Shown here in pieces: positions 5,859 to 41,414 of a stretch of DNA of 53,100 nt. Origin of the DNA: an uncultured Oscillospiraceae bacterium (GTDB lineage Bacteria; Bacillota; Clostridia; Oscillospirales; QAMX01). Made by a program: the position numbers and the translations under genes. Every line of letters starts with the position of its first letter. Position 1 is the stretch's first letter. The DNA lies in the NCBI GenBank assembly GCA_964439435.1, contig CAYTOF010000003.1:1-53100 (forward strand). Reading direction: 5' to 3'. The notes under the pieces were generated by a model. That model was given only the letters and a program-made list of their open reading frames with translations, ran no database searches and was not told the DNA's origin.

Positions 5859-7499
<1,641 letters not shown>

Positions 7500-7525
7500 T
7501 TATTACCTCCGTTTATCTGATTTGC

Positions 7526-7810
7526 TTACTCTACAATGGCAAGAATATCGTTCTGACGAACGATGTTGTATTCTTCGCCATCAATTTTAACTTCGGTGCC
7601 GGAATACTTGCTTGTTATGACCTTGTCGCCTGTTTTGACATACATCACAACTTCTTTACCATCCACAACTCCGCCGGGCCCTACTGCGATAATCTCGGCA
7701 ACAGTTGGTTTCTCTTTTGCTGTGCCTGTCAATATAATACCGCTCTTGGTTTTTTCCTCGGTTTCAATCATTTTTACGACAACACGATCTGCCAAAGGTT
7801 TTAGTGTCAT
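7526..7810 (-). CDS. groS: co-chaperonin GroES
   Basis: LKPLADRVVV, TKSGIIL; 94 aa upstream of groEL. Confidence 0.99.
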   Translation of the reverse strand: MTLKPLADRVVVKMIETEEKTKSGIILTGTAKEKPTVAEIIAVGPGGVVDGKEVVMYVKTGDKVITSKYSGTEVKIDGEEYNIVRQNDILAIVE

Positions 7811-7957: not shown

Positions 7958-8908
7958 TTATACATTTTGCACACAAATTTTGTCTAAATGGTGATTGATC
8001 AGCTCAAAAACATCGTATTTTTCCGGTTCGTTTATGATTTCATGGCGCAATCCGTCAAAAATCTTCGTCTCTGTCTTTGCGCCAAATTTCAGGAGCAAAT
8101 GGGAGATCGCCGCCACACCTTTGCCAAATCCGCTCACGGGATCGTCACTTCCCGCCACCAGCAACACCTTTTCGTCTTTTATGGCGGAGAGGTGTTTTTT
8201 CTTATTGCTATAGGCCATGCCGCCCAGCAAATCTCTGAACCCGCCAAGGGTGAAGATAAACCCGCAGTTTTCGTCATTTATATAGAGGTCCAACTTTTCA
8301 CGGTCACGACAGAGCCAATCGAACTCGCTGTAGCTGTCTTTGGAAAACTTTTTGGAGAATTTCCCAAAAGAGAGCTCATTCATTATTTTGCTTCTGTACT
8401 TGTCTCCCTTGAAGAGGATGCCGGTTTTCGCAAGCAAGCTTCCCATCTTTGTTATAAAATCGGGGTTGTGGGCGGGCCCGCTCAAAATATACAAGCAGAT
8501 GGTTTTGGGATACATTGTCATATGTGTCCTGGCCAGCAGAGAACCCATGCTGTGTCCAAAGAGGAAAACGGGCATGTCCGGATACTCCCTTTGCGCAAGT
8601 TTCCGCACCGTCTCAATGTCCTGCACCGCATATTCCCAACCCGAGCGTGGGGCGAAATACCCTTTTATGCCATTTTTCTCCGCTGTTTTCCCGTGTCCGA
8701 GATGGTCCGGAGCATAGAGGGCATATCCCTTTTTCACAAAAAACTCGGCAAACTCATCATAGCGAGCTGCGTGTTCCACCATCCCGTGGGCGATGACAAT
8801 CAGGCCCTTTACCTCGGATTTTTTCGGTTGCCAACGGTGGATGTAAGTTTCAAACCCATCCAACGCAGATTGCATGAAAAAACCGTCATATTGTACGATA
8901 TGCTCCAT
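7958..8908 (-). CDS. alpha/beta hydrolase (lysophospholipase / monoacylglycerol lipase-like)
   Basis: HGMVEH, DHLGHG, GHSMG nucleophile elbow, C-terminal HEIINE. Confidence 0.9.
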   Translation of the reverse strand: MEHIVQYDGFFMQSALDGFETYIHRWQPKKSEVKGLIVIAHGMVEHAARYDEFAEFFVKKGYALYAPDHLGHGKTAEKNGIKGYFAPRSGWEYAVQDIETVRKLAQREYPDMPVFLFGHSMGSLLARTHMTMYPKTICLYILSGPAHNPDFITKMGSLLAKTGILFKGDKYRSKIMNELSFGKFSKKFSKDSYSEFDWLCRDREKLDLYINDENCGFIFTLGGFRDLLGGMAYSNKKKHLSAIKDEKVLLVAGSDDPVSGFGKGVAAISHLLLKFGAKTETKIFDGLRHEIINEPEKYDVFELINHHLDKICVQNV

Positions 8909-8930
8909 AAAAACCCGCCTTTCACATCGA

Positions 8931-8972
8931 TTGACTTGTATATATTTTACCCATATAATATATACAAGTCAA
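8931..8972. promoter_or_regulatory. symmetric divergent sigma-A promoter built from a 16-bp perfect inverted repeat
   Basis: ttgacttgtatatatt-N10-aatatatacaagtcaa; plus strand TTGACT-17-TATAAT, minus strand TTGACT-17-TAAAAT. Confidence 0.8.
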
Positions 8973-8986
8973 TCACCGAGCTCTTC

Positions 8987-9008
8987 GCTTAATAGTGATA
9001 AGGAACTA
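8987..9008. repeat. attL: GC core + arm ttaatagtgataaggaacta
   Basis: arm 8989-9008 is the reverse complement (18/20) of 20053-20072. Confidence 0.8.
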
Positions 9009-9051
9009 AATTACTTATCAACTGTCAGCTGACGGTTTCGGGGTGCATACG

Positions 9052-9095
9052 AAAAGTCCGTCCGACTTCCTAATAGGAGGTTTGGACGGACTTTT
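9052..9095. terminator. bidirectional hairpin near the element's left end
   Basis: aaaagtccgtcc/ggacggactttt 12-bp stem with inner pairing and T tracts on both strands. Confidence 0.65.
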
Positions 9096-9281
9096 GCTGT
9101 TTTATGATGAATATGGACAATTCCTACCCCTAGTTTTTCTAACGTTCAGGAGCATTTTTCTAACGGGTAATTTATTCGACTATGTGGAGTCATTTTGGCT
9201 ATTTATCACCTGAAGACTATGAAAAGCAGATCTCTTTAGCGTAACTCCATGTCCGCAGGGGCGGGCGGGAGAGGGTCGTTA

Positions 9282-11072
9282 TTACTCATAATATGAGGCT
9301 TGCATTAGATACATTTGCGCGTATAATCCGTTTAAATCCATTAATTCTTGATGCGTCCCGTACTCTTTTAACATGCCGCTGTCGATAACTATTATTTTGT
9401 CGCAGAACTTTGCGCTTGACAGCCTGTGGGAAATATAAAACGCGGTTTTATCGCCGATTAAACCATTAAATTGTTTATACAGCAAATATTCTGCGCGAGG
9501 GTCTAACGCCGAAGTCGGCTCGTCTAACACCGTAATAAAAGTATTATCTTTAAAATAGGCCCTTGCAATAGCCAGCTTCTGCTGTTCACCGCCTGACAGC
9601 TCAACGCCGTTTTCATCAAACAGTTTAAATAAATATGTATCATATTGCTCCGGCAATTCTGTTATCCTGTTATGAATGCTGGCTTTTTCCGCCGCTATCG
9701 TGATATTGGTTTTATCTGCATTCGTTAGTGATGTGATGTTTTCACCCATCGTAAACGCAAAGAGCTGAAAATCCTGAAAAACCGACGAAAATACGGATAA
9801 ATATTCGTTGTATTTTATTTCTTTTATGTTTACGGAATTGAATAAAATTTCACCGTCAACCGGGTCGTACAGTCGCATTAACAGTTTAATAAAAGTGCTT
9901 TTTCCCGCACCGTTTTCTCCAACGATAGATATTTTTTCACCCTTGCGGATTTTTACATTGAAATTATTCAGCGCATATTCAGACTGCCCCGGATATTTAA
10001 ACGACACGTTATTGAACTCGATTGTATAGTCGTCCTCTTTGTCGATGTTCAAAGGTCTAACCTCGGTTTTTTCGAATTTATTTTCAAGCCCCATAAAATC
10101 AAGGTAATATTTTATATATCTTATCGAATCCGAATAGGACAAGAGTGTGCTTGAAATTTGCCCAAGCGAGCTTCTTAACAACCCTATAGTGCCAATGGCA
10201 AGCGAAAAGGAACCGAGGGAAAAATCTTTAAATATAACGCTGTATCCCAATAAAATGTACACCGAAAATTGTATAAGATTTTGCAGGAAGCCGGTAATCA
10301 ATCCGTTGAAATCGGAGTAAGTCTTTTTCTTCTTGAATATTTTATTTATCTCAATAAATGCAGATTTTATCTTTTTTCCAATTTTTCCGCCCATATCAAA
10401 GATTCGAATATCTTTGCCGTATGTAAAATCGGAAGCTGTTCCGTTGAAATAATTTATTTCGCGCTGCCTTTTTATTAATTCTTCATCTTTCGGGCGATTC
10501 AATTTAATAAAGATAGCGCTGATAACAGAATTGATGATGATGCCGCCGACCGTTACCGCAATTACGAGAGGATTAATGGCCGCCAATATGACAATCGCGC
10601 TGATTAATAAAATAACATTGGAAAATACAGCTATAAAACTCCAAACCGTATTATTAAATCGAAATGACACAAACTCCCGCGCCAAGTCTTTTAATTCAAG
10701 CGTTTCTTTTTCTGCCAATAATTCATAATCAAGCTCCATGCATTTTTTATAAAAATCCGCCGTAAGTCGTCCTTGCGTTAAACCGCCTCTGCTGATCCTG
10801 ATATTATCGTTAAAATATGTTTTCAGAATGTTGGTTAATAAAACCAAAGCCAATATTCCGATAACAATCATGGCATAATCGGAAAACGGCTCTTCGTTTG
10901 TCAAAGCGTCGAACGTATATTTTACAAGTATCAACGGTGGATATGCCAACAAAGTAAACGAAAGCATTTCGCCTACCGTCATCAACATATAGACTTTATC
11001 TACTCGCCATAAAATCCTGAACAGCGCCGGTATATATGAAAAATAAACTAATAATTGTTTTATCTGCTTCAT
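9282..11072 (-). CDS. ABC exporter, fused TMD-NBD (heterodimer subunit 2)
   Basis: N-terminal hydrophobic helices; GENGAGKST, LSGGEQQK, LDEPTSALD. Confidence 0.93.
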   Translation of the reverse strand: MKQIKQLLVYFSYIPALFRILWRVDKVYMLMTVGEMLSFTLLAYPPLILVKYTFDALTNEEPFSDYAMIVIGILALVLLTNILKTYFNDNIRISRGGLTQGRLTADFYKKCMELDYELLAEKETLELKDLAREFVSFRFNNTVWSFIAVFSNVILLISAIVILAAINPLVIAVTVGGIIINSVISAIFIKLNRPKDEELIKRQREINYFNGTASDFTYGKDIRIFDMGGKIGKKIKSAFIEINKIFKKKKTYSDFNGLITGFLQNLIQFSVYILLGYSVIFKDFSLGSFSLAIGTIGLLRSSLGQISSTLLSYSDSIRYIKYYLDFMGLENKFEKTEVRPLNIDKEDDYTIEFNNVSFKYPGQSEYALNNFNVKIRKGEKISIVGENGAGKSTFIKLLMRLYDPVDGEILFNSVNIKEIKYNEYLSVFSSVFQDFQLFAFTMGENITSLTNADKTNITIAAEKASIHNRITELPEQYDTYLFKLFDENGVELSGGEQQKLAIARAYFKDNTFITVLDEPTSALDPRAEYLLYKQFNGLIGDKTAFYISHRLSSAKFCDKIIVIDSGMLKEYGTHQELMDLNGLYAQMYLMQASYYE

Positions 11073-12889
11073 ACAGCGCCCTCCGTTGTTCTTCGGTATA
11101 AATCAGCCTGCATTGTGTATAATTCTTTATATAATCCGTCTTTTGAAATCAATTCATTGTGAGAGCCGTATTCGGTTATTTCGCCTTTATCGAAAACCGC
11201 GATACAGTCGCAGAATTTTGAACTTGACAACCGATGGGAAATATATATCGACGTTTTATTTTTTGATATTTTATTGAAGCTGTCATATACCTCAAATTCG
11301 GCGCGGGGGTCAAGCGCGGCCGTCGGCTCGTCCAATACAATGATGGGAGCGTCCTTATACACCGCTCTCGCGATGGCGAGCCTCTGCATCTCGCCGCCGG
11401 AAAACTCTACGCCTTTCTCGTCAAATATACGATATAAAGACGTATTTTCAGCCATATCCAAAGAAGAAATTCTTTCTTTCATCTTTGACATAGAAATCGC
11501 CTTTGTTATCAGATTTTCATTGTATTCGCTTTCCATCGCCGCGATATTTTCTTTTAGCGTCAGCGCAAGCAGTTTGTAATCCTGGAACACCGCGGAAAAT
11601 AACTTATTATATGACGAGCGGGTATATTCGGATATATCAACGCCGTCAATCAAGATCCTGCCCGACGTCGGCTTATACAGCCCCATGAGCAATTTAATAA
11701 ACGTGGTTTTACCCGCGCCGTTCTCGCCGACAATCAAAAGAGCCTGTCCCAAACGGATTGTTATAGTAACATTGTGTAATGCGTATGTATCGCTGTTCGG
11801 ATACTTAAACGAAACATTTTCAAATACTATTTCATGATTTCTTGTAATATTCAAATCTGCTTTGTTTGCAACATCAGATAAATATTCTTGTTTGTGTTTG
11901 AAGAAATCAAAGAACGCTTCCAAATAATCCGTGTTTACCGCGAATTCCACGAGATTATATACTAAATTGCTTATCCTGTTCCTTATTTCTCTCAAAGCAT
12001 TTCCGATTAACGTAAACTCTCCGACTGTGATGTGATGCAAAGCCAATACTTCATACCCTAAATATAGGTAAATCCCCGCTTCAAGAATTATATCTGCCAA
12101 ATAGAACAAAAGCATGGAAAATCCGATTATTTTAGTTGCCTTTTTTACTCTCGTTTTAAAGAGAACGGCTTGGAGCTCTTTCATTCGGTTATATAATTTA
12201 TCTTTCAAATTAAACAGGTGTATTTCTTTTGCATAAGAAAAACTTTGCGCTATATCGTATATATAATTAACCTTTCTGATGGTTTCCGTCCTCAATTTAC
12301 TGTCAAAATATTGGCCTTTCGCATTTTTATAATCGTAATATATTCTGCATATCAATGAAATTATAAGCGGAACGATAATTACTATGCTTATGGAAGATAA
12401 GATGTATATTGTGCCCGACAGTACAAGCACGCCGGAAATAAGTCCGGCAATGCTGTTTATAACCGATTCGAGTTTTCCTTGGTTCAACGCTTCCAACGTA
12501 AAGTCTTTTTTCTCTAAAAATTCCTTCTCGCCGATTAATTTATATTCAACATTCATGCAAACATCGGATATCTCATAATTTATCTGCGATTGTATAATAT
12601 TTCGATAATAACCTATCCTGTTATTGATTAAACTGTTTGCGATATTCAGTAAAAACATTATACCGAGTATGACAGAAATGGCAATGATATATTCCGTTAT
12701 ACTGCCTTTTCGGGTTAAGATATCAACTGAGTATTTTATAAGATACATACCCGGAAAAACCTGTACCGAACCCACGACAATATTAACAAAAATCAATATG
12801 ACATAAGCGGGATTTTTCCGCCAAAGAAAAGCAAGACTTTTACCCGAATATTTTATTATGTTTTTTATATTCGATAATATTTTTTTCAT
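11069..12889 (-). CDS. ABC exporter, fused TMD-NBD (heterodimer subunit 1)
   Basis: GENGAGKTT, FSGGEMQR, LDEPTAALD; 4-bp overlap with the next gene. Confidence 0.93.
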   Translation of the reverse strand: MKKILSNIKNIIKYSGKSLAFLWRKNPAYVILIFVNIVVGSVQVFPGMYLIKYSVDILTRKGSITEYIIAISVILGIMFLLNIANSLINNRIGYYRNIIQSQINYEISDVCMNVEYKLIGEKEFLEKKDFTLEALNQGKLESVINSIAGLISGVLVLSGTIYILSSISIVIIVPLIISLICRIYYDYKNAKGQYFDSKLRTETIRKVNYIYDIAQSFSYAKEIHLFNLKDKLYNRMKELQAVLFKTRVKKATKIIGFSMLLFYLADIILEAGIYLYLGYEVLALHHITVGEFTLIGNALREIRNRISNLVYNLVEFAVNTDYLEAFFDFFKHKQEYLSDVANKADLNITRNHEIVFENVSFKYPNSDTYALHNVTITIRLGQALLIVGENGAGKTTFIKLLMGLYKPTSGRILIDGVDISEYTRSSYNKLFSAVFQDYKLLALTLKENIAAMESEYNENLITKAISMSKMKERISSLDMAENTSLYRIFDEKGVEFSGGEMQRLAIARAVYKDAPIIVLDEPTAALDPRAEFEVYDSFNKISKNKTSIYISHRLSSSKFCDCIAVFDKGEITEYGSHNELISKDGLYKELYTMQADLYRRTTEGAV

Positions 12890-12898
12890 AAACGCACC

Positions 12899-14452
12899 TT
12901 ACAATTTAAAAAACATACCGTCATCATGTTCGACTAATACGTTACATACGCTGTCAGGAGAAATTTTTATCTTTCCTGATGTTGTCCATTCACCGATAAC
13001 TTTCTTTAGAAGCGTAAAAAATATGTTTGGATACATTCCCCCTGCTTTATATCTTAAATGTTTAGGGAACAATTTTATAAATCCGTCAGAATATTTTTTT
13101 ACCTGCCGTTGATACAATGGTATAATATCTTCGAAAATGCCGGGCAGCGTTTCTTTGAATCGGTTATACTGTGCGATGGGAAAAAATGGTACGTTAAGTT
13201 CAGCTTTATCTCCGATATTTTTTAAGAAGCCGTTTTTAATTGCTGTTGCCGCAAATTCTTTTTCATTGTCGCTTATATTGTCGCTTTTTATTATTTTTTC
13301 ACAAACTGCGAGTTCATCTTTACGCATTGAATTTATATTTTCAAACGGCGGAAAAACAAATACAATATGACCAATTGTGTGATGTTCCGTATCTATGTAA
13401 TTTCTATTGTCAAAAAAGAATACATTTTTATAATCGTCGGTTCGCGCATAAAATTCCCATTTCCAGCCGTCAAATCTTTCGGGAGTGTTTCGCAATTCGA
13501 ATTTATTATTATACCTTTCATTAAAATGGTCAAAAGCCATAATACAGAACAAACACATTAATTCGTCATAGCTTTTATTTGCCGTGAATATATCAAGTTC
13601 CAATGTCTTTACCGTAAATTTATTTGCTCTTTCCAACAAAATATCGGATATGGATTTTATACATTCTTTTGATTGGATATAATCGTACTTGTTGATTGAT
13701 TCGTCATAAATAATAATGTCGGATAAAATTGTATTTTGCGTAGGTTGTATTATTGTGCCGCATTTTAACAACATTTCGATTCTGTCCTCGATATAATACG
13801 CGGGAACACCTAATATTTTTGATAAATCCTCAACGCTTCTCGCTTCTTTATATACTTGCCAAAGTATGTTTTGCGACAGCGCGTCATTAAGATACATTCG
13901 CGGGATTCCGGCGTATGAACCGTCTGTGTATAGATTCAATTTTATCGGCTTCAATGCTGTTTCCTGCATAATATCAAACTCCTTTTTCAATTTTTCCCGC
14001 CCGATTGACAAGCGGTATTTTATTGTGCCCTCCGGGATATTCAACCGTTCGGCTATTTCTCGGCTTGTCAGATTGTCATAATAGTGCATTACGATAATGT
14101 CGCGATAGCAAGCGGATAACTGCGTTATGTTTTTTCTTAATGTATCGTAAAGTTCGTTTTGCTCAAAATCATATTCGTCATTATACGGTTGTTCGTCAAG
14201 ATCGTCTGACGAATACATCTCCCGTTCTCTGCCTCTGTTTCGGCTAAAAGATTTCAGGGTATTATTGGCTACACCCCACAACCATGCCTCGAATTTATCT
14301 ATATCTTTTATTGCCGTTATGGTTTTCGCCGCTTGCAATAAAATCTCTTGCGCCAATTCTTCCGCTTCCTCACGTGAGTATGTGCGGCGTTGCGAAAATG
14401 AAAAGATTTTATTTATATATTTTACAAGAATTTCGTTATCCATTTTTTCCAC
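12899..14452 (-). CDS. ECF (sigma-24-type) sigma factor with a C-terminal extension of about 350 aa
   Basis: region 2 (AEELAQEI..FEAWLWGVANN) and region 4 (LTSREIAERLNIPEGTIKYRL) in the first ~160 aa of 517 aa. Confidence 0.88.
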   Translation of the reverse strand: MEKMDNEILVKYINKIFSFSQRRTYSREEAEELAQEILLQAAKTITAIKDIDKFEAWLWGVANNTLKSFSRNRGREREMYSSDDLDEQPYNDEYDFEQNELYDTLRKNITQLSACYRDIIVMHYYDNLTSREIAERLNIPEGTIKYRLSIGREKLKKEFDIMQETALKPIKLNLYTDGSYAGIPRMYLNDALSQNILWQVYKEARSVEDLSKILGVPAYYIEDRIEMLLKCGTIIQPTQNTILSDIIIYDESINKYDYIQSKECIKSISDILLERANKFTVKTLELDIFTANKSYDELMCLFCIMAFDHFNERYNNKFELRNTPERFDGWKWEFYARTDDYKNVFFFDNRNYIDTEHHTIGHIVFVFPPFENINSMRKDELAVCEKIIKSDNISDNEKEFAATAIKNGFLKNIGDKAELNVPFFPIAQYNRFKETLPGIFEDIIPLYQRQVKKYSDGFIKLFPKHLRYKAGGMYPNIFFTLLKKVIGEWTTSGKIKISPDSVCNVLVEHDDGMFFKL

Positions 14453-14534
14453 CTCATATATATCAGTGAGAGTTTTTCCGTTTTAGTTGGGATTTTTTCG
14501 ATTATTCAAAACAAATTTTGTCTTGTTATCAAAT

Positions 14535-14563
14535 ATTTTACCATAAAATAATTAGGGAATCTA
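14535..14563 (-). promoter_or_regulatory. sigma-A-like promoter of the ECF-ABC operon
   Basis: minus strand TAGATT-17-TAAAAT with TG extension. Confidence 0.45.
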
Positions 14564-14647
14564 AAAATAATTTTGTTTGGTTCTCTCCGTTGTTCCTGCG
14601 ACGCCGAACACCTCCGGCTGCGCGGACTTGCTTTGTGCCTTTGGCAT
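14561..14647 (-). CDS. 28-aa small ORF MPKAQSKSAQPEVFGVAGTTERTKQNYF (peptide or truncated gene)
   Basis: strong RBS GGAGGTGAATCT-ATG; below the 60-aa ORF-track cutoff. Confidence 0.4.
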   Translation of the reverse strand: MPKAQSKSAQPEVFGVAGTTERTKQNYF

Positions 14648-14764
14648 AGATTCACCTCCATAAAAATAGCCGCAGCTCTCACTGCGGCATATAAAAAAGC
14701 GCCTACCTTTCGATAGACGCTTCTTCGCGGATTTACTGTTAATGTTTGTTATCGGTCGGATAAT

Positions 14765-16084
14765 TTACTCAGAAAGCAACCACTCGACCACATTCTGCGA
14801 CTGAATGCCGTCGTAGGAGGTGTCCAGTCCCGTGTCGAGCGAGAGCACCAGCTTCTCGTAATTGTCGCGGATTTTTTGGAGAGGAGCCAGCTCGCGGCGT
14901 CGGACATCCTCGCTTGTCATGGACTCCGTCACCTGAATATACAGCTTCCTTTCCGCATCGGTGGCGATGAAATCGACCTCGACATTGTCAATCTTTCCGA
15001 TTGCCACATCGTAGCCACGGCGCAGCAGCTCGAAATAAACAACGTTCTCCAGCGCGTGACCGCTGTCTCTGTTGCGAAAGCCCAGCAGGTAATTTCGAAG
15101 CCCGATATCTACAATATAATACTTGCCGAGTGTGCGCAGGTATTCTTTGCCCTTGATATCAAATCGCTTAATGTCGTAGAAGAAATAGCTCTCCAACAGG
15201 GCGTTCACATACGCCTGAACCGTGTGGGCGCTGGGTGAGCCCTTCCGTTTACCGTCCTCAAGCAGCCCCTCGTTTACAAGGGTGTTACCGATAGACGCAA
15301 TCGAGACATTGCTTCCGATGTTGTCCGCGAGGAACAGGATGATTTTGCGAAGCAGTACAGGGTCAGTGATGCGCTGCTGACCTCGACGTTTCTCCCGCTC
15401 TAAAATATCCCGGATGACGACGGTGGAATAAATACCATCAAGCAGGATCAGCGCCTTCTCTTGATTCAGTCCTACGTCAGCTATGCCCGGCATCCCGCCA
15501 AAGCGGAGATAGGAGTCAAAGGCTTCTCTTAGGTCGTAGCGTTCGCCGCTCTTGTCATAGACCTGTTTTCTTATGCCACCTAAGGCGCTCTGCGTTTCCC
15601 TCACTTCGAAGTCATGGAAATACAGAAACTCATTAAAAGACAGAGGCAGCATTTTGATCTCTATGCTTCTGCCGGAGAGGTAGGTCGAATACTCCGACGA
15701 AAGCAGATACGCGTTGGAGCCGGTGATATAGATATCGCAGTTGAAATCAACGCGGAAGGAATTCACCGCCTCCTCCCAGGCGTCGATTCTCTGTAGCTCA
15801 TCGAAAAACAGATACATACGTTTTCCGAGCAGAACGCGCTGCTTCACATAGTTGTAAAGCATATCCGAGGTCATGTCCTTGAAATCGTGAGACTCGAAAT
15901 TCATCTCAACGATCTGATCCTCGGAGATGCCGCTTTCCTTCAGGTGCAGCATCATCAGCTTCAGCAGGCTGGACTTTCCGCAACGGCGGATGCCCGTCAC
16001 CACCTTGACAGGTTCCGTGTCCTGAAAAGCGATGAGTTTATTCAAATACAATTCTCGTTTTTTAAGTTCATGTGATTCTATCAT
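14765..16084 (-). CDS. AAA_14 ATPase with C-terminal DUF4143 (PD-(D/E)xK-like) domain
   Basis: GIRRCGKS Walker A, FFDELQ Walker B, ITGSNA, LENVVY, EVDFIA..IQVT. Confidence 0.9.
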   Translation of the reverse strand: MIESHELKKRELYLNKLIAFQDTEPVKVVTGIRRCGKSSLLKLMMLHLKESGISEDQIVEMNFESHDFKDMTSDMLYNYVKQRVLLGKRMYLFFDELQRIDAWEEAVNSFRVDFNCDIYITGSNAYLLSSEYSTYLSGRSIEIKMLPLSFNEFLYFHDFEVRETQSALGGIRKQVYDKSGERYDLREAFDSYLRFGGMPGIADVGLNQEKALILLDGIYSTVVIRDILEREKRRGQQRITDPVLLRKIILFLADNIGSNVSIASIGNTLVNEGLLEDGKRKGSPSAHTVQAYVNALLESYFFYDIKRFDIKGKEYLRTLGKYYIVDIGLRNYLLGFRNRDSGHALENVVYFELLRRGYDVAIGKIDNVEVDFIATDAERKLYIQVTESMTSEDVRRRELAPLQKIRDNYEKLVLSLDTGLDTSYDGIQSQNVVEWLLSE

Positions 16085-16133
16085 TGATCACACCTCCAGC
16101 GAGCTTAGCATAGCATAAACTCATGCAAAAATC

Positions 16134-16161
16134 AAGTTTTTGCACTCAACTGCAAAAACTT
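16134..16161. promoter_or_regulatory. 11-bp inverted repeat next to the AAA gene promoter
   Basis: aagtttttgca-ctcaac-tgcaaaaactt abutting minus-strand TTGATT-17-TATGCT. Confidence 0.55.
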
Positions 16162-16462
16162 CTCACTTTCGACAAGCTTTGTAGCATACGCTTTTCATAT
16201 AAGACCCTCAGCTATATCGTGATTGACAAGTGAACGGAAATGATTCGATATAGTCATGGACGCGTTATACAGCGTCGCCAGCAGACATATCCCCTCATGC
16301 AAAATCCACACCTTTGTATAGAAATGCCTAAACAACGTCGAGTTTTCAACATTAGGTGCGGATATTTTTATGAGATAATGCAATAATATTCCTACTACAC
16401 AAAATAGTAGGCAGCGAAAAATGGATGTAGAGCACATGCGAGAGACTTACCCCCAACTCACA

Positions 16463-16642
16463 TCATACATCGGCCCATGCATCAGGAGCAAGGTAAACGC
16501 CGTGAGAAACGCGCTCATATTCTTTTGCAGCCACATATTTTGAAAGTATGTACTTTGAAATACCCGCTCCCAGTACGGCCGCCGTAGTTAAAACACCGCC
16601 ACTTGCTTCTGTCATCTGATCAAGTAGTTCAAACTGGCTCAT
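16463..16642 (-). pseudogene. truncated AbiEi (type IV TA antitoxin) N-terminal fragment
   Basis: MSQFELLDQMTEASGGVLTTAAVLGAGISK..YERVSHGVYLAPDAWAD then stop; no AbiEii toxin ORF follows. Confidence 0.7.
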
Positions 16643-16661
16643 GTGCATCATCCCCTTTTAC

Positions 16662-16685
16662 GCTAATATAATAATCTATATTAGC
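16662..16685. promoter_or_regulatory. inverted-repeat operator upstream of the abiEi remnant
   Basis: gctaatata-N6-tatattagc overlapping TTTACT-17-TATTAT (minus strand); AbiEi proteins autoregulate via promoter IRs. Confidence 0.55.
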
Positions 16686-17012
16686 ACAATAGTAAACATG
16701 ATTTTCCATCAAACTCGCTACCAGTATTTCTTATCTTTTGTGTGATTGCATTTGGTGTTTACAACTTCAGCAGAAGTACCCTTTACAAAACTCAGTCCCA
16801 ATTTGGGATTGAGTTTTGTCATAGTGCTGCTTGGCTTGTTTGCACCCCCGCTGTCAAGTTTCAGCCACCGTATTCATGGGCTTGCCGTCCATAAGGCAAA
16901 CACCGCATATCTGCTTGGCATCGAGGCAGAAAACTACAAGGAAAACGAGCATAAGCGAGATGAAAAATAAGCGCCGGCATGGTGCGCAGCTGCATGATGA
17001 AATCATGTGTTC

Positions 17013-17124
17013 AAGGGGCATGGGGATTCCCCATCAAGCAAATTTGCAAAAAATGACGGCAACCGGCATAGCTTGCAAATTGCACGAGTGGGCGCCCACG
17101 TGCATAGCTTGCGCATTCTTATAC
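17013..17124 (+). other. candidate oriT-like region
   Basis: hairpin atggggattccccat, hairpin tgcacgagtgggcgcccacgtgca followed by TAGCTTGC, direct repeat gcatagcttgc at 17066 and 17102. Confidence 0.3.
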
Positions 17125-17668
17125 TAATAAAATGTTATCATCAATTCTATCTTACCAAATCCTACCGATTATCTGCCTTGCATGGCTTTTCGGTGGGATT
17201 TCGTCTTTGTTGGTGGTAACAATATGCTCGAATACAGTACAACATAAATTGTATCGCAAAAAAACTACGATAGGCATCTCCACAGCCCTCAGCCGCTTTT
17301 GCTGGATTGATGACGAACGAATGACCCTAAGTTTTAGTGAGTGTCATTCAGGGCAGCGCGGCGGAGCTCGAAAGCAGATAGATCGTCAGGACGGAATACT
17401 GTCATCTCTTAATCCAATCTCTATACTCTCATTTTACGTTTCCGCAAGCCAGAGGCAAAAGGCTTCTAAACGCTGAATCACTTCCAAAGCCCATCCCTCC
17501 AAAAACGGCATAGTTTGCTTGTTTCACAGAACTTCTCCAGCAAGAGAATTATAACTTTTGAAAAATTCTTTCTGCATCGGTTGTAAAAATGACGTTTTCG
17601 CTGGCTACTACTTGAGGGACAATTTTATTGCAGCCCAAAAACAGCAAATATATTTTCCTCCGGTTCAT

Positions 17669-17721
17669 CCGAACTAATGACGAGGGGTGAACGTTTTGTT
17701 CACCCCTCGTCATTAGTTCGG
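17669..17721. repeat. perfect 24-bp inverted repeat with a 5-nt loop
   Basis: ccgaactaatgacgaggggtgaac-gtttt-gttcacccctcgtcattagttcgg. Confidence 0.95.
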
Positions 17722-17725
17722 GTAG

Positions 17726-17917
17726 GTGCAAACGCTCAACATCGAGGGAAATCCTTGGTTTGTATCCGTTGATGTTTGCGCCGCTCTCGGCGTTTCCCGC
17801 ACTGCTGTAAGACAATTGGACGAAGACGAAAAGGGTGTGCATTCAACGCACACCCTTGGTGGAACCCAGAAGATTGCCGTTGTAAATGAATGTAGTGCAC
17901 CGTCCCACAGAGCATAG
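17726..17917 (+). pseudogene. Bro-N (phage antirepressor-type) domain fragment
   Basis: IEGNPWFVSVDVCAALG..LDEDEKGVHSTHTLGGTQKIAVVNE is the Bro-N pattern; truncated at 63 aa. Confidence 0.75.
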
Positions 17918-18012
17918 TTTAGCAAATTGGGGCGGTAAGTAAAATCCAAAGCGATTGGCACTTATGTTTCATCCCTTGTTGGTGCCTTTCGCAGAAAGGA
18001 ATGCTCTTTTGT

Positions 18013-18255
18013 ATGACCAACAATACCCCCACATACGCGCCTATCGACCTTTGCGCCTGTTATGATTATCTTCCCTACCCGCCGGAGGAGTTCGCGGAGG
18101 AATGCCGTATTTACTGGCACAATCAGAATCCGTTCCGCGGAACGATTCAGCGCCGTATCGGCAATACCTGGTTTACCATCGAAACCGAATGTGTGGGAAG
18201 CGAAAAGCTGACCGATAAGGTCAAGCGGCTCATGTCCTCTGATAAAAGTTTGTAG
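18013..18255 (+). CDS. transposon-encoded TnpW-family protein
   Basis: RRIGNTWFTIETECVGSEKLTDKVKRL; directly upstream of the recombinase; RBS gaaagga. Confidence 0.7.
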   Translation: MTNNTPTYAPIDLCACYDYLPYPPEEFAEECRIYWHNQNPFRGTIQRRIGNTWFTIETECVGSEKLTDKVKRLMSSDKSL

Positions 18256-18353
18256 AGAGGGGGCTTCCATTCATGACAAATACAAAAAATTATGTTAATA
18301 TACAACCATGCACACCGATTCTGTCAGCTGACCCAACTGAAAAGGAGGATACT

Positions 18354-20021
18354 ATGTTGGATCAGCAGAAAATTACCATCATCTATTGTCGCCTGTCCGT
18401 GGAGGACATCAAAGAGGACTCCAAGGGTGGCAAAGCTGACGAATCAAATTCAATACAGAATCAAAAAGAGTATTTAACCCGATATGCAAGAGAGCAGGGA
18501 TACACTAATCTGAAAATACTGGTGGACGACGGCTATACCGGAACAAACTTCAATCGTCCCGGCGTACAGGAGGGATGCGAGCTTGTAAAGCAAGGACTTG
18601 TGGGATGCTGGCTGTGCAAAGACCTTTCCCGTTTTGGACGTGACTATCTGACCGTTGGGCAGTACACGGACATCATCTTCCCCAGCTACGATGTACGATT
18701 TATCGCCGTCAATGACGGGGTGGACAGTGAGCGCGGCGATGGCGAGGGTATGGCTGCAATCCGCAATCTGTTCAACGAATGGTACCCGCGGGATACCAGC
18801 AAGAAAGTCCGTGTCAGCCTCCGTCAGCGTGGCACCAGCGGCAAGCACATGGGCAAGCCGCCCTACGGATACCGCTGCGACTCAGAGGACAAAGAGTTCT
18901 GGGCACTGGACGAGGAAGCTGCCCCGGTGGTCAAGTACATCTTCGACCTCAGTATTGACGGAAAAGGGCCGGAACAGATTGCCCGGATTTTGGAACAGGA
19001 GCAGGTGTTGACCGCCAAAGCCCTGTATGCCAAACAGAAAGGCAAGCCTCTCCCGGAAAGACCGTACCATTGGATCGGACAGTCTGTGGTGGGTATTCTG
19101 GAACGGCAGGAGTACACCGGCTGTACTTGCAACTTCAAAACCTACTCCAAGTCCTACAAGCTGAAAAAGCGGATTCCAAATGCCCCGGTGGATATGTATA
19201 TCATCCCCGACACGCAGGACGCAATCGTACCGCAGGCTCAATGGGACAGAGTACAAGAGCTGCGAAAAAACAAACGCCGCCCCGCTAAAGCGGAACGGCA
19301 GGGTTTTTTCTCCGGGCTTCTGTTCTGTGCCGATTGCGGCGGCAAGCTCCATTTTGCCACCAGCAAGAGCTTTGAGGGCAGACAAGACCGCTATGTATGC
19401 AAGCATTACAAGAGCAACCGCGGTACTTGCACCGCCCACTACATCCGGGAGGATGTGCTGCGGGATATGGTACTGGAACGGATACAGGCAGTGAATGAAT
19501 ATATCCGTGACGATGTCGAGGGCTTTCAGGAGGAATGGCTGCGTTGCCGCAGAACTGACCGGGAGAAGAATATCCGTGAGGACAAAAAGCGGCTGGAGCA
19601 GGCGAAGAAACGCCTTGCAGACTTGGATGTGCTCATACCCCGGCTCTATGAGGATTCCGTCCTTGGTAATCTGAGCATGGACAGATACAAGAAGCTGTCC
19701 GCAGATTATGAAGCAGAACAGGAACGGTTAAAACTCGAAATTGAAGTAACGGAAGAATGGGTAGAACAGCAGGAGGAAATGAACGATAATCTGGACGTGT
19801 TCATTTCCTTGACCCGTAAGTATGTGGATGCGGAGGAACTGACACAGACGATTGTAAATGAGTATATCAAGAAAATCGTGGTGTTCGCCCCCGACAAGTC
19901 CAGCGGAAAGCGGCAGCAGAAAATCCAGATTTATTTCAACTTCGTGGATGAGCTTGATATTCCTGTCATTTCTGACCCGGTGATTACAGAAACAACCTAT
20001 GGACGCAGAAAAACGGCGTGA
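18354..20021 (+). CDS. large serine recombinase (resolvase + recombinase + Zn ribbon + coiled coil, DUF4368-type C-terminus)
   Basis: IYCRLS catalytic Ser, DDGYTG, KDLSRFGR, PYGY, CADCG..C..C; RBS aaggagg before ATG at 18354. Confidence 0.95.
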   Translation: MLDQQKITIIYCRLSVEDIKEDSKGGKADESNSIQNQKEYLTRYAREQGYTNLKILVDDGYTGTNFNRPGVQEGCELVKQGLVGCWLCKDLSRFGRDYLTVGQYTDIIFPSYDVRFIAVNDGVDSERGDGEGMAAIRNLFNEWYPRDTSKKVRVSLRQRGTSGKHMGKPPYGYRCDSEDKEFWALDEEAAPVVKYIFDLSIDGKGPEQIARILEQEQVLTAKALYAKQKGKPLPERPYHWIGQSVVGILERQEYTGCTCNFKTYSKSYKLKKRIPNAPVDMYIIPDTQDAIVPQAQWDRVQELRKNKRRPAKAERQGFFSGLLFCADCGGKLHFATSKSFEGRQDRYVCKHYKSNRGTCTAHYIREDVLRDMVLERIQAVNEYIRDDVEGFQEEWLRCRRTDREKNIREDKKRLEQAKKRLADLDVLIPRLYEDSVLGNLSMDRYKKLSADYEAEQERLKLEIEVTEEWVEQQEEMNDNLDVFISLTRKYVDAEELTQTIVNEYIKKIVVFAPDKSSGKRQQKIQIYFNFVDELDIPVISDPVITETTYGRRKTA

Positions 20022-20038
20022 CCCTGCGGTCACACCGT
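20013..20038 (+). terminator. hairpin overlapping the recombinase stop
   Basis: acggcgtgacc-ctgc-ggtcacaccgt. Confidence 0.45.
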
Positions 20039-20052
20039 TATCTGCGGCAAAA

Positions 20053-20074
20053 TAGTTACTTGTCACTATTAAGC
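20053..20074. repeat. attR: arm tagttacttgtcactattaa + GC core
   Basis: inverted 18/20 match to 8989-9008, 32 bp after the recombinase stop. Confidence 0.8.
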
Positions 20075-20180
20075 CTTGGTTTTAGTTGTTTTACTGTTCT
20101 ACTTTGGTGAGTTCCGGAAAAGTGACTCCAACTTCAAGCTCGGTTTGTTTATTCACATTATAAACTGAGAGGTCTTTCAA

Positions 20181-21677
20181 ATGGACGGCTATATTTTGGC
20201 TCTTGATCAAGGTACCACAAGCTCAAGAGCCCATATAATTGACAGCTCGGGGCAAATTATCGCCTCTGCCCAGCACCCCTTTAAACAGATTTATCCTGCT
20301 GCCGGATGGGTGGAGCATGACCCCTTTGACATCCTCGAAACCCAGCTTCGCGCTGCGGGAGAGGCCTTTGCCCAAAGCGATCTCTCCCCCTCCGATATCG
20401 CCGCCATCGGTATTGCTAATCAGCGAGAGACGACCATTGTGTGGGATAAGCATACGGGCAAGCCCGTATGCAATGCCATTGTCTGGCAGTGCCGCAGGAC
20501 AGCGGAGATCTGCAATGAGCTGATTGCGAGTGGGCTTTCCGAATATGTGCAGGAGAAGACAGGCCTTGTCATAGATGCGTATTTTTCTGCTACAAAGCTC
20601 AAATGGATTCTTGACAATGTGAAGGGAGCAAGAGAGGCGGCGGATAAAGGGCAGCTCCTCTTTGGAACTGTTGAGACATGGTTGATTTGGAATCTCACAG
20701 GCGGTGCCGAGCATGTGAGCGACTGTGCAAACGCCTCTCGAACAATGCTCTTTGACATCGATAAACTCTGCTGGGATGATGAGCTTTTAAAAGCTATTGA
20801 TATCCCAGACTCTGTTTTACCTCGCCCTGTCCCCTGTATGGACTCCATGGGTAAAATTGCCAAGGGCATAAAGCACATGGAATCCTTGGAGGGCATTCCC
20901 ATCTGTGCCGCGGCGGGAGACCAACAGGCAGCCCTCTTTGGTCAGTGCTGTTTTGAACCGGGTCTTGCCAAAAACACATACGGCACAGGTTGTTTTCTCT
21001 TGGCAAACTGCGGAGATGAGCGCCCCCGTTCAAGACATGGACTGGTGACAAGCATTGCCTGGAATACAAATACACAAAAAATATACGCCCTGGAGGGCAG
21101 CGCTTTCAACACAGGCTCTGCCATACAGTGGTTGCGGGATGAACTCGGACTTATAGAATCTGCCAAGGAGTGTGACAAACTTGCCGAAACGGTAGAAAAC
21201 AGCGGCGGTGCTTTTTTCGTACCGGCCTTTACGGGACTCGGAGCACCCTATTGGGATATGGATGCAAGAGGCCTTCTGTGCGGTCTGACTAGGGGTACGA
21301 CCAGGGCCCATGTCGCAAGGGCAGTGCTTGAGAGCATAGCCTTTCAAACGGCTGATTTGTGTGCTGCCATGGAACTGGATCTCGGATTTTGCTTGCGAGA
21401 GTTGCGCGTTGACGGCGGCGCAAGTGCCAGTGATGTGTTGATGGCCTTTCAAGCCGACATCCTGGGTATGAACATAAACAGACCCCAAAACACAGAATCC
21501 ACGGTTTTAGGGGCCGCTTTTATGGCAGGACTTGCCGTCGGGCTTTGGAGTGATACCGCCCGGCTGTCAACAATGCGCAAAACACAGAGAGTTTTTCACC
21601 CTGCCATGTCAAGCGAGCGCAGAGATGGGCTTTATAAAGGATGGAAACAAGCCATAGCACGGACAAGGTCGTTTTAG
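20181..21677 (+). CDS. glpK: glycerol kinase
   Basis: LALDQGTTSSRA, NQRETT, GDQQAAL, KNTYGTGCF; 498 aa. Confidence 0.93.
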   Translation: MDGYILALDQGTTSSRAHIIDSSGQIIASAQHPFKQIYPAAGWVEHDPFDILETQLRAAGEAFAQSDLSPSDIAAIGIANQRETTIVWDKHTGKPVCNAIVWQCRRTAEICNELIASGLSEYVQEKTGLVIDAYFSATKLKWILDNVKGAREAADKGQLLFGTVETWLIWNLTGGAEHVSDCANASRTMLFDIDKLCWDDELLKAIDIPDSVLPRPVPCMDSMGKIAKGIKHMESLEGIPICAAAGDQQAALFGQCCFEPGLAKNTYGTGCFLLANCGDERPRSRHGLVTSIAWNTNTQKIYALEGSAFNTGSAIQWLRDELGLIESAKECDKLAETVENSGGAFFVPAFTGLGAPYWDMDARGLLCGLTRGTTRAHVARAVLESIAFQTADLCAAMELDLGFCLRELRVDGGASASDVLMAFQADILGMNINRPQNTESTVLGAAFMAGLAVGLWSDTARLSTMRKTQRVFHPAMSSERRDGLYKGWKQAIARTRSF

Positions 21678-22524
21678 AGTGTGCTTATATGCCTTGAAAA
21701 CTCCGCTTTGGCACGTTTGAGGTCAGCCGTAGAGACAATCCACTCTTTGCGCTCATTTCCGATGCGCCCTAGCTTTTCCATCTTGGCATTGCCCATTGGG
21801 TGATAGGAAAAAAACTTTACATTTTTACAGTGTGGCAGCCTTTTGTAAAGTTTACGGTATTCACCAAAATGCACCGCAGCTCTATATTTGCCTTGAGACT
21901 GTCCGCAAGCAGCAGGTTTTCTATTATCCTCTCATTTGAAACCCCGGTGTACTCAATATGCCTTTCCTTGTCGCTGTCTTTAAAATCCCATAGCAGCGTA
22001 TCTGTATATTGACACAGTGTGGGCAGAAAGGCCTTGTCGAAATACCCGCAAGTCTCCACCGCTGTATTCAGATTGTTTTCCTTTGCCGCTTTTAAAAGGG
22101 CGATTGTCTCCTTTGGGTATGCCATCGGCTCGCCGCCGGAGATTGTGAGCCCTCCCTCTTTGCCATAAAAAGCGACATCGCGCAGCACTTCGTAGATAAT
22201 CTCATCAATGCCCATCTCTTGGCTGACGGATTCAAGTGCCTTTGTCGGACACACACCCACACAGTCTTCACTCATGAGACATCTATCTCTGTCAAAGACA
22301 TGCTTTCCTGTTGTAAACTGATGTGCGCCGTTTTTGCATATGTTGCAGTTGCCGCACCGAATACATTTGGACGGTGAGTAATATATCTCATTTTCTTTTT
22401 TGTGTGTCTCGGGATTGTGGCACCATTTACATCGCAGCGGGCAGCCCTTTATAAAAACCGTGGTTCTTATTCCCGGCCCATCATGCATACAAAACCGCTG
22501 TATCTCCACCACAGGTAATTTCAT
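21674..22524 (-). pseudogene. glycyl-radical enzyme activating enzyme (radical SAM with ferredoxin insert), frameshifted near 21850
   Basis: HDGPGIRT, CPLRCKWCHNPE, SGGEP; frame stops at 21817 while the normal C-terminus (LYKRLPHCKNVKFFSYHPMGNAKMEKLG) lies in the 21674..21874 frame. Confidence 0.85.
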
Positions 22525-36755: not shown

Positions 36756-37192
36756 TTGCAGGTTTCCTTTCGAGTTTATTCAATGGAGTATCAAGCGCAA
36801 TTGCTTTTCTACAGAGAAGTATGGGCGATGTGTAAAATATGGTGTATAGATACTATCATAAAATTACAGAGAAGTCGATTGTAAAGCCTTTGGTTTCTCT
36901 CTGACGTTTCATAGCTTTGGTTGAGGAGAAACATCTGTCGTGCCGCTCACATAATTTAATCTACGGTTTATATCCTCTCTCATACCGGGCTCTGTATTTT
37001 AAAAATTAATGCATTGTAATGAATGTGGACGCAAAATCACGCTACCAAGTTCTGTTTTTCATAATTTCCGGTGTGTTTTCCTGTCTCGGTTCCACAGTTT
37101 GGTCGTTTTTCGTCTCACACCGTCTATGTCAAATAATAAAATTTCGAATTCTGAAGTTTAGCTGTTTAAGTCAATTAAACATATGCCGCTTG

Positions 37193-37333
37193 TCATTTTT
37201 CAGCAAAACCAACAACACAAAAAACAAGACCGATGATACCAAGAAAAAGCGATACACTGTCAAGCCCGGTTGAAGATAATTGGAACAATATTGCAAAAAG
37301 AAGTATCCCAATGCCCAAAACAAGTTTTTTCAT
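37193..37333 (-). CDS. 46-aa two-helix membrane protein MKKLVLGIGILLFAILFQLSSTGLDSVSLFLGIIGLVFCVVGFAEK
   Basis: RBS gaaagggg, ATG 37333, TGA 37193; two hydrophobic stretches; absent from ORF track. Confidence 0.65.
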   Translation of the reverse strand: MKKLVLGIGILLFAILFQLSSTGLDSVSLFLGIIGLVFCVVGFAEK

Positions 37334-37590
37334 TTAATGGCCCCTTTCCACACAACACACAACAAGTAGATTTTTGTTGCAATGCTCAAATCATGAAAAA
37401 TTTAACAGGATAATATAATACCATGTTCTATTTTATAAGTACACTCCAACACCTCTAATCTGTGCTGCCAATAAAAATATTACGGTGTTTGATTTATGCA
37501 CATTTATTCCTCCTTTAAGCACCATTGACGGGAGGTATTTCCCGTGATATGCTTATTGTAAAATACCGTCTGATTGGTTAAGGAGAAGAA

Positions 37591-38574: not shown

Positions 38575-38600
38575 GCTTTTAAAAATTTTATCGCTATAAC

Positions 38601-39146: not shown

Positions 39147-39281
39147 TTCCGAGAGTAAATAGTCACCCTGTAGACGCGGATATTTACCTCTTGCTAGGAA
39201 ACAAGCCAACTGTAAAGTGCAATCGACTTATTTCGGGAAAATGTAAGCCACTGACAAAATAGATGGCGTGCCGGCAAATTG

Positions 39282-41382: not shown

Positions 41383-41414
41383 GGAATAAACAGAAATTTT
41401 TGGAGGATATTAGA

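What the first reader, a model, noticed from the sequence alone, without database searches (positions are those of the whole stretch)
8987..20074. Base-resolved 11.1-kb serine-recombinase element with a reconstructable attP and attB
Seen: the left end reads ..ctcttc-GC-ttaatagtgataaggaacta and the right end tagttacttgtcactattaa-GC-cttgg. The inner arms are inverted repeats (18/20) and GC is duplicated. Known: large serine recombinases cross over at a central dinucleotide within a palindromic attP. Inference: attP = cttgtcactattaa-GC-ttaatagtgataag and attB = caccgagctcttc-GC-cttggttttag. The recombinase looks intact, so excision may still occur although the backbone genes are decayed.
Basis: partly seen in the sequence, partly recalled or inferred. 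Interest (0 to 1): 0.72.

Follow-up and report, generated by a model that had tools for sequence, protein, structure and literature searches.

The report
Serine-recombinase cargo element, crossover site corrected

Summary
The quoted end sequences and the inverted repeat are real: 18/20, or 20/22 with the GC included. The 16-nt arm occurs only at these two places in the window (0.05 expected by chance). The element lies between a hydrolase gene and glpK. It carries two ABC exporters, an ECF-type sigma factor, an AAA ATPase, gene fragments and a full-length 555-aa large serine recombinase (LSR) with Resolvase, Recombinase, Zn-ribbon and DUF4368 domains.

The base-resolved reading is wrong. GC is palindromic and is simply the inner tip of the repeat. 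In 71 independent right junctions of 70-90% identical relatives, the arm ...TATTAAGC is followed by C-TT. In at least 10 independent left junctions, TT-g precedes GCTTAATAG.

Empty sites were recovered for two relatives, in Collinsella aerofaciens and Butyricicoccus pullicaecorum. Both lack the GC. In Collinsella the exchange is pinned to exactly the TT.

Corrected for the window:
- Element: 8986-20075, flanked by TT at 8984-85 and 20076-77.
- attP: ..cactattaagcc-TT-cgcttaatagtg..
- attB: ..caccgagctc-TT-ggttttag..

No empty site or circle junction exists for this locus in public data, because the host has no close relative. It is a new member of the known multi-targeting DUF4368 LSR clade.

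The parts
8964..8983 (+). attL, host half-site (B arm) in the divergent hydrolase/glpK promoter region. It matches the family target consensus poorly.
   Evidence: The PWM score is -3.35, below every training site. The sequence was read.
8984..8985 (+). Crossover core TT, left copy.
   Evidence: TT sits at this position in all independent left junctions with a TT core. The family core was fixed by empty sites.
8986..9008 (+). attL, element half-site (P' arm): c-GCTTAATAGTGATAAGGAACTA. Position 8986 is c where every other left junction found has g.
   Evidence: (I6).
9009..9100 (+). Conserved left sub-terminal region. It contains the inner inverted-repeat copy at 9024-9048 and a terminator-like hairpin at 9052-9095.
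   Evidence: Conserved in left ends from metagenomes at 80-92% identity. The inverted repeat is I3.
9282..11072 (-). ABC exporter, fused permease and ATPase (596 aa). Cargo.
   Evidence: Pfam ABC_tran and ABC_membrane. NCBIfam gives only generic MsbA-like or multidrug hits, below the equivalog cut-offs.
11069..12889 (-). Second ABC exporter half (606 aa). Cargo, and the likely heterodimer partner of the first.
12899..14452 (-). ECF-type sigma-70 factor with a roughly 350-aa C-terminal extension (517 aa). Cargo.
   Evidence: Sigma70_r2 and Sigma70_r4. TIGR02937, E = 1.4e-24.
14765..16084 (-). AAA_14/DUF4143 ATPase (439 aa). The segment 14690-16213 is absent from element variants in several metagenomes.
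   Evidence: The joint 14689->16214 was seen in runs X2, X3, X5, X6, X7 and X12.
16195..17917 (.). Zone of gene fragments: the DUF6017 C-terminus (16195-16437, -), the AbiEi N-terminus (16463-16651, -), a Bro-N/anti-repressor N-terminus (17726-17917, +), and a perfect 24-bp hairpin at 17669-17721.
   Evidence: (I1). Related contigs show frameshifting indels at 17021, 17121 and 17259.
18001..18255 (+). Small conserved ORF (84 aa) that lies upstream of the recombinase gene throughout the family. No family hit.
   Evidence: Nucleotide homology to 47 related loci starts at about 18009-18150. No Pfam, NCBIfam or PHROG hit.
18270..18353 (+). Conserved promoter-like region and 5' leader of the recombinase gene. 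It contains the inner inverted-repeat copy at 18308-18332 and the ribosome-binding site AAGGAGG.
   Evidence: Alignment of 27 family members by eye. (I3).
18354..20021 (+). Large serine recombinase, 555 aa, of the TnpX/TndX-like multi-targeting clade.
   Evidence: Resolvase, Recombinase, Zn_ribbon_recom and DUF4368 domains. 70-90% identity to 80 loci. Full length, but differs from 66 relatives at 6 of 277 near-invariant columns. The closest solved structure is the TnpX catalytic domain, 2MHC, E = 2.3e-29.
20053..20075 (+). attR, element half-site (P arm): TAGTTACTTGTCACTATTAAGC-c.
   Evidence: The 22-nt arm 20053-20074 is identical in more than 30 related loci, and C follows it in 69 of 71 unique right junctions.
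20076..20077 (+). Crossover core TT, right copy.
20078..20097 (+). attR, host half-site (B' arm): GGTTTTAGTTGTTTTACTGT. It fits the family target consensus.
   Evidence: PWM score 5.66, the 99.65th percentile of all TT-adjacent 20-mers in the window.

Best explanation
An 11.09-kb integrated, non-conjugative cargo element is bounded by attL (8964-9008) and attR (20053-20097) of a TnpX/TndX-like large serine recombinase of the DUF4368 'multi-targeting' clade.

Shown:
- The recombinase gene is the last gene of the element and reads toward the right end.
- Its attP is a roughly 48-bp near-perfect palindrome whose two arms (..CACTATTAAGCc and c/gGCTTAATAGTG..) flank a non-palindromic TT.
- In relatives, integration is a conservative exchange at that TT. 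One TT lies at each junction and no bases are gained or lost.
- The usual targets are terminator-like palindromes of the form AAAAA-GCC..GAAA..C-TT-G..TTTC..GGC-TTTTT.

Inferred for this copy:
- The circular form carried ..cttgtcactattaagcc-TT-cgcttaatagtgataag..
- It recombined with ..caatcaccgagctc-TT-ggttttagttg.. in the hydrolase/glpK intergenic region. That site matches the consensus on the right half only.

Inferred from TnpX and TndX: the same protein, without a directionality factor, could recombine attL with attR and excise a circle, because the two TT cores match. Whether this copy is still active is unknown.
For: Domains and intactness:
- Domain architecture.
- Intactness against 66 relatives.
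- The TnpX catalytic domain is the closest solved structure.

Junctions:
- Right arm plus C-TT is nearly invariant in 71 unique right junctions from many genera, with a variable flank after it.
- At least 10 independent left junctions read TT-g|GCTTAATAG, and their flanks mirror the right flanks.
- So both attP and attB become palindromes around TT, whereas the GC model would need a non-palindromic CTTG-GC-CTTG target.

Empty sites:
- L022: four runs give ...CCCCGCAGCTCA|TTTGGGCTGTGGGG. Homology starts at 11702, and another insertion of the same end stops at 11703.
- L058...CCCAAAACA|CTTGTTTTGGGTG.
- These empty sites fold as strong hairpins, z = -6.7 and -6.5.

Other support:
- Core variants (AA) occur at both kinds of junction, while the flanking C and G stay the same.
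- Literature: core polarity and the bidirectional action of TnpX and TndX (PMC2475636); DUF4368 marks the multi-targeting clade that includes TndX-like transposases (PMC10083194).
Against: - No empty site and no circle junction could be found for this locus.
  - All 12 metagenome runs examined carry the occupied site, at equal depth inside and outside the element.
  - A JGI metagenome scan for the GC-model empty site found nothing. That pattern could not match the TT-model site, which was never scanned.
  - The host's flanking hydrolase has no relative above 50% identity.
- The TT core is therefore transferred from relatives that are 79-84% identical in protein, although the right arm is identical.
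- Position 8986 is c where all other left junctions have g. This fits the GC model, in which that base would be host DNA, as easily as it fits a variant P' arm.
- The left host half-site fits the consensus poorly, and the reconstructed attB is not a hairpin.
- The Logan contigs used are unitigs that drop rare variants, so the absence of excision products says little.
Confidence: 0.85

Rival explanations
1. One reading: the crossover is at the GC that abuts both arms. Then attP = ..cactattaa-GC-ttaatagtg.. and attB = ..ctcttc-GC-cttgg.., and the element is exactly 8987-20074.
For: GC is present at both ends, directly next to the arms. Base 8986 (c) departs from the family's g, which needs no explanation if that base is host DNA.
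Against: Empty sites of two relatives, one of which has the identical right arm, contain no GC at the junction. CTT after GC is nearly invariant at 71 right junctions, and TTg before GC at all left junctions with a TT core. Under this model that would be an unlikely direct-repeat target, CTTG-GC-CTTG. A palindromic core removes the polarity that serine integrases derive from the dinucleotide.
Confidence: 0.04
2. The element is a fixed fossil. The ends and the recombinase ORF persist, but the copy can no longer excise. Possible reasons are the c at 8986 next to the core, the six substitutions at otherwise near-invariant recombinase positions, or the atypical host half-site in attL.
For: The site is occupied in every run, at the same depth as the flanks, with no joint across 8986/20075. 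Unusual substitutions are Q48, S177, V279, R343, R346 and L448. 8986 is c rather than g. There are gene fragments in the backbone.
Against: The ORF is full length, and the YCRLS motif that in relatives holds the presumed catalytic serine is present. The TT cores match at both junctions. TnpX and TndX need no other element-encoded protein. Unitig data cannot show rare excision. Variants with and without the ATPase segment coexist, so the element is still evolving.
Confidence: 0.3
3. The unit is a composite. A minimal recombinase module (the left 110 bp plus 18001-20075) picked up unrelated cargo, and the inner inverted repeat (9024-9048 and 18308-18332) marks the ends of a second, nested, recombinase-less element.
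For: Only the left roughly 110 bp and the stretch from 18009 to the right end have homologues in relatives. The 9-kb interior has none. The inner repeat is 25 nt, 84% complementary, and centred on GTCA-GC-TGAC (I3).
Against: Both inner-repeat copies are conserved in relatives that carry entirely different cargo, so they belong to the backbone and not to the cargo. No junction or empty form at those positions was seen in any run.
Confidence: 0.07

Closest known systems
Tn4451/Tn4453 (TnpX) of Clostridium perfringens and C. difficile
   Same: Both are small non-conjugative cargo elements moved by a single large serine recombinase. The TnpX catalytic domain is the closest solved structure (2MHC, E = 2.3e-29). 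TnpX both excises and integrates without accessory proteins (PMC2475636). Targets resemble the element's own joint (title of reference 18).
   Different: From my own knowledge, Tn4451 uses a GA core, has tnpX as the first gene with a promoter completed at the circle joint, and carries the TnpZ mobilisation protein. Here the core is TT, the recombinase is the last gene with its own conserved upstream promoter-like region, and no relaxase was found.
Tn5397 (TndX) and the DUF4368 'multi-targeting' LSR clade (Durrant et al. 2022, PMC10083194)
   Same: The DUF4368 domain is present. One recombinase lineage is found at 71 different flanks in many genera. The target has a degenerate motif around a conserved core, as that paper describes for a TT-core example with A-rich and T-rich ends.
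   Different: Tn5397 is conjugative and, from my own knowledge, uses GA. The experimentally used TT-core integrase MTI_2871 has a different attP, since neither the arm sequences nor the MLDQQKIT N-terminus occur in that paper's supplement. The target here is a longer, terminator-like palindrome and not just AT-rich DNA.
Phage serine integrases (phiC31, Bxb1, A118)
   Same: Shared features are the domain order, a pseudo-palindromic attP of about 50 bp, a shorter attB, a 2-bp non-palindromic core that sets polarity, and conservative exchange without duplication.
   Different: Phage integrases have a single attB and need a directionality factor for excision. This lineage has many targets, and by analogy with TnpX and TndX it probably needs no such factor (not tested).

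Membership tests
Large serine recombinase | N-terminal resolvase-type catalytic domain containing the serine nucleophile motif. | tested here: met
   PF00239, E = 7e-17. The YCRLS motif is at residues 11-15 of the 555-aa protein, and near-invariant columns were compared across 66 relatives. TnpX catalytic domain 2MHC, E = 2.3e-29. Catalysis itself was not tested.
Large serine recombinase | C-terminal Recombinase domain plus zinc beta-ribbon domain. | tested here: met
   PF07508, E = 1e-15, and PF13408, E = 2e-16.
Large serine recombinase att system | Pseudo-palindromic attP around a non-palindromic 2-bp core that is identical at attL and attR. | tested here: met
   TT lies at 8984-85 and 20076-77. 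The arms are 20/22 complementary. The reconstructed attP folds as a 48-nt palindrome, z = -8.6. This holds only with the TT core. With GC the core would be palindromic.
Large serine recombinase att system | The empty site equals B-core-B', with no gain or loss of bases. | tested here: inconclusive
   Met for two relatives. For this locus, no empty site exists in the data searched.
DUF4368 multi-targeting (TndX-like) LSR clade | DUF4368 domain at the C-terminus. | tested here: met
   PF14287, E = 1.7e-24, residues 497-561 of the 582-aa ORF.
DUF4368 multi-targeting (TndX-like) LSR clade | Closely related recombinases integrated at many unrelated targets. | tested here: met
   71 unique right flanks among 76 junctions of 70-90% identical relatives in many genera.
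DUF4368 multi-targeting (TndX-like) LSR clade | Excision and integration by the recombinase alone. | not testable with these tools
   Known for TnpX and TndX (PMC2475636). No excision product is visible in unitig data.
Integrative mobilisable element of the Tn4451 type | A mobilisation (relaxase) gene and an oriT. | tested here: not met
   No relaxase or Mob family was found in the five large ORFs or the 13 smaller ORFs scanned (Pfam, NCBIfam, PHROGs). oriT cannot be excluded.
Integrative conjugative element | Type IV secretion, coupling protein and relaxase genes. | tested here: not met
   None within 8986-20075. Relatives have more than 10 kb between the recombinase gene and the left end and may be larger elements.

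The most novel reading that the evidence does not exclude
This recombinase lineage may be a 'terminator-seeking' serine transposon. It would recognise the two arms of intrinsic-terminator hairpins (A-tract, GC stem, T-tract) as its B and B' half-sites and cut at a TT in the loop. Insertions would then land just downstream of genes and rarely disrupt them. In addition, the conserved 25-nt inverted repeat that links the left sub-terminal region to the recombinase 5' leader could be a regulatory device that senses whether the element is integrated or circular. In the circle, the left copy comes to lie about 150 nt downstream of the recombinase stop codon.
Probability: 0.2. Interest if true: 0.5.

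Novelty: new member of a known kind. Interest (0 to 1): 0.27.

Why it matters
The element itself is ordinary. The value lies in the correction. The corrected sites, and the family-wide target consensus around a TT core, give testable sequences. They also add one more natural attP/attB set to the multi-targeting LSR clade, which is being developed as a genome-insertion tool.

Tried and rejected
- Empty site of this locus by exact-protein look-up. The hydrolase is found only on occupied contigs or contigs that are too short. The glpK product and the recombinase are not on record.
- Empty site or circle junction in 12 metagenome runs that hold the left flank. Every run is occupied and no joint spans the ends. 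These are unitigs, so rare forms would be lost.
- JGI metagenome scan for the GC-model empty site with a 0-6 nt gap: no hits. I noticed afterwards that this pattern could not match the TT-model empty site. The second and last metagenome scan went to left ends instead.
- Close relatives of the host through the hydrolase: the next best hit is 50% identical, so intergenic comparison is impossible.
- IMG/VR scan for the GC-model circle junction: no hits. The scan for the left arm returned mostly chance hits in coding DNA, plus two right ends.
- Plasmid collection (PLSDB): no recombinase above 53% identity, so there is no annotated relative whose ends could be read.
- Left ends within the 80 genome loci: none, because the left ends lie more than 10 kb from the recombinase gene.
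- Literature search by end sequences: only chance hits. MTI_2871, an experimentally used TT-core integrase, is not this family.
- The Rfam hit to mir-5697 at 17665-17723 was rejected as a spurious match to a perfect hairpin.
- L111, a diverged strain's proS terminator, was too different in the loop to decide between the models. The Logan empty-site contigs superseded it.
Full report
**1. The observation**

Both end sequences read exactly as quoted. The repeat finder lists the pair as arms 8987-9008 and 20053-20074, 22 nt and 91% complementary (I6). The 16-nt arm, allowing two mismatches, occurs only at these two places in the window. Shuffles give 0.05 expected matches, and none of 100 shuffles gives two. 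So the repeat is real.

'GC is duplicated' is true as a string but carries no information. GC is its own reverse complement, so it cannot be distinguished from the innermost two bases of the inverted repeat.

**2. Anatomy**

- Host genes on the left are groEL and groES (5859-7810, minus strand) and an alpha/beta hydrolase (7958-8908, minus strand). On the right is glpK (20181-21677, plus strand). The insertion therefore sits in a divergent promoter region.
- Inside, the G+C content falls from about 47% to 33-40% over 9-14 kb.
- The genes are two fused ABC exporters, an ECF-type sigma factor with a long C-terminal extension, and an AAA_14/DUF4143 ATPase.
- After these comes a 1.9-kb zone holding only fragments: a DUF6017 C-terminus, an AbiEi N-terminus and a Bro-N N-terminus.
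- The element ends with a small conserved ORF and a 555-aa large serine recombinase with Resolvase, Recombinase, Zn-ribbon and DUF4368 domains.
- No relaxase or conjugation gene is present.
- The recombinase starts at 18354, behind AAGGAGG. It is full length, but it differs from 66 relatives at 6 of 277 near-invariant columns. Its closest solved structure is the TnpX catalytic domain.

**3. Relatives**

A scan of one genome per species found 193 stretches encoding a relative (tblastn E <= 1e-3), and the best 80, at 70-90% identity, were kept as loci. They come from Oscillospiraceae, Lachnospiraceae, Collinsella and other groups. Many of them carry the window's exact 22-nt right arm about 30-40 nt after the stop codon.

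Among 71 unique right junctions, the bases after ..TATTAA are G 68, C 71, C 69, T 68 and T 66. The sequence then varies, but with a clear motif, G..TTT.C.GG.TTTTT.

None of these loci contains a left end, because all their left ends lie more than 10 kb upstream. Nucleotide homology to the window covers only the left roughly 110 bp and the stretch from about 18009 to the right end. The cargo is therefore specific to this copy.

**4. Left junctions**

A metagenome scan with the left-end 20-mer gave 19 loci. Unitigs from the window's own metagenomes added more. Independent left flanks read ...aaaaaGCC..GAAA..c-TT-g|GCTTAATAG. This is the mirror image of the right flanks, except that the dinucleotide is TT on the same strand at both junctions.

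A direct repeat set inside otherwise mirror-symmetric arms is the signature of the crossover core. With TT as the core, both attP (..TATTAAGCC-TT-GGCTTAATA..) and attB become palindromes. With GC as the core, the target would have to be the non-palindromic CTTG-GC-CTTG.

A few relatives carry AA in place of TT, at right junctions (L005, L011, L016) and at left junctions (L105, L107), while the flanking C and G stay the same. That fits a core which must match between the two partners but is not itself recognised by the protein.

**5. Direct test with empty sites**

No empty site exists for this locus.
- All 12 runs examined carry the occupied site at even depth.
- The JGI scan for the GC-model empty site was negative. 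Its pattern could not match the TT-model site, which was never scanned.
- The host hydrolase has no relative above 50% identity.

I therefore tested two relatives.

In L022 (Collinsella aerofaciens), the right arm is identical to the window's and occupies 11679-11700. C is at 11701 and TT at 11702-03. Contigs from four runs match the flank from 11702 onward and are preceded by ...AAAGAAAACCCCGCAGCTCA. A further contig carrying the same element end matches up to 11703 and then continues into a different flank. The exchange is thus confined to exactly the TT, and the empty site holds neither the GC nor the C.

In L058 (Butyricicoccus pullicaecorum), an isolate's contig matches from the C of CTT and is preceded by ...ACAAAAGCACCCAAAACA.

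Both empty sites fold as strong hairpins with the TT in the loop, z = -6.7 and -6.5.

**6. Consequences for the window**

- The element spans 8986-20075, with TT at 8984-85 and 20076-77.
- attP is ..cttgtcactattaagcc-TT-cgcttaatagtgataag..
- attB is ..caatcaccgagctc-TT-ggttttagttg..
- The right host half-site fits the family consensus (99.65th percentile of TT-adjacent 20-mers). The left half-site does not (score -3.35).
- The reconstructed attB is not a hairpin, z = +0.8. This is an atypical target.
- Base 8986 is c where every other left junction has g. It may be a variant of the P' arm next to the core, and it is the one detail that the GC model would explain more simply.

**7. Mechanism and activity**

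Serine integrases cut with a 2-bp stagger at the centre of the site, and a non-palindromic core sets polarity (PMC2475636; PMC3783163). TnpX and TndX both integrate and excise without accessory proteins. DUF4368 marks the multi-targeting clade that includes TndX-like transposases (PMC10083194).

By analogy, this protein could recombine attL with attR, since the cores match. No excision product was seen, but unitig data cannot show rare forms. Activity therefore remains open.

**8. Novelty**

This is a new member of a known kind. Its base-resolved boundaries and both reconstructed sites do not.

Noticed in passing
window 9024-9048 and 18308-18332: A 25-nt inverted repeat (84% complementary, core GTCAGCTGAC) links the left sub-terminal region to the recombinase 5' leader. 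Both copies are conserved across the family even where the cargo is unrelated. In a circular form the left copy would lie about 150 nt downstream of the recombinase stop codon. Its function is unknown. It could be an operator pair or an RNA pairing.
   Followed up: partly
window 14690-16213: The AAA_14/DUF4143 ATPase gene segment (1524 bp, about 51% G+C against 33-43% in the neighbouring cargo) is replaced by the 20 nt GTTATATCAAACCGTTCGCC in unitigs of six runs. Some of these runs also hold the full form, so two element variants coexist.
   Followed up: no
window 8929-8974: A 21-nt palindrome, 95% complementary (GATTGACTTGTATATATTTTA / TATAATATATACAAGTCAATC), lies in host DNA between the hydrolase start codon and the insertion point. 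It looks like an operator in the divergent promoter region that the element split (I5).
   Followed up: no
window 17669-17721: A perfect 24-bp hairpin with a 5-nt loop sits in the fragment zone. It produced a spurious Rfam hit to a microRNA family. It could be a terminator or a relic of a transfer origin.
   Followed up: no
loci L005, L011, L016 (right junctions) and L105, L107 (left junctions): Some family members carry AA instead of TT between the conserved C and G. Single cases show TA (L037) and TC (L064). These are elements with a flipped or altered core.
   Followed up: partly
window 20070 (runs X1, X4, X5, X9): A related element end, about 90% identical, stops matching at 20070 (all four runs) and, in X1, X4 and X5, continues TTGTTTTCCCTTTTAG. 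It lacks the AAGCC of the arm. This may be a crossover at the TT inside the arm, or a deletion.
   Followed up: no
locus L097 (JAEEGH010087918.1): A right end carrying a recombinase gene is followed about 1.5 kb downstream by a left-end-like sequence. This suggests neighbouring or tandem elements of the family.
   Followed up: no
L022/L111 and L058 flanks: The family's usual targets are intrinsic-terminator-like hairpins just downstream of genes. In Collinsella the site is about 125 bp after proS.
   Followed up: partly
window 21840-21850: Seven of the first eight runs laid on the window (all but X2) show a joint at 21850/21840 with 23 extra letters, AGCTGCCACCTCTTTTATATGCT. This is a consistent difference between the window and the public unitigs, just downstream of glpK.
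   Followed up: no
window 7958-8908: The host's hydrolase has no relative above 50% identity among 5.8 billion clustered proteins. The host appears to be a poorly sampled lineage from bioreactor, sludge and wastewater metagenomes.
   Followed up: no
window 37000-45000: A second low-G+C stretch (35-41%, against about 47-50% elsewhere) may be another island. It holds no copy of the element arms.
   Followed up: no
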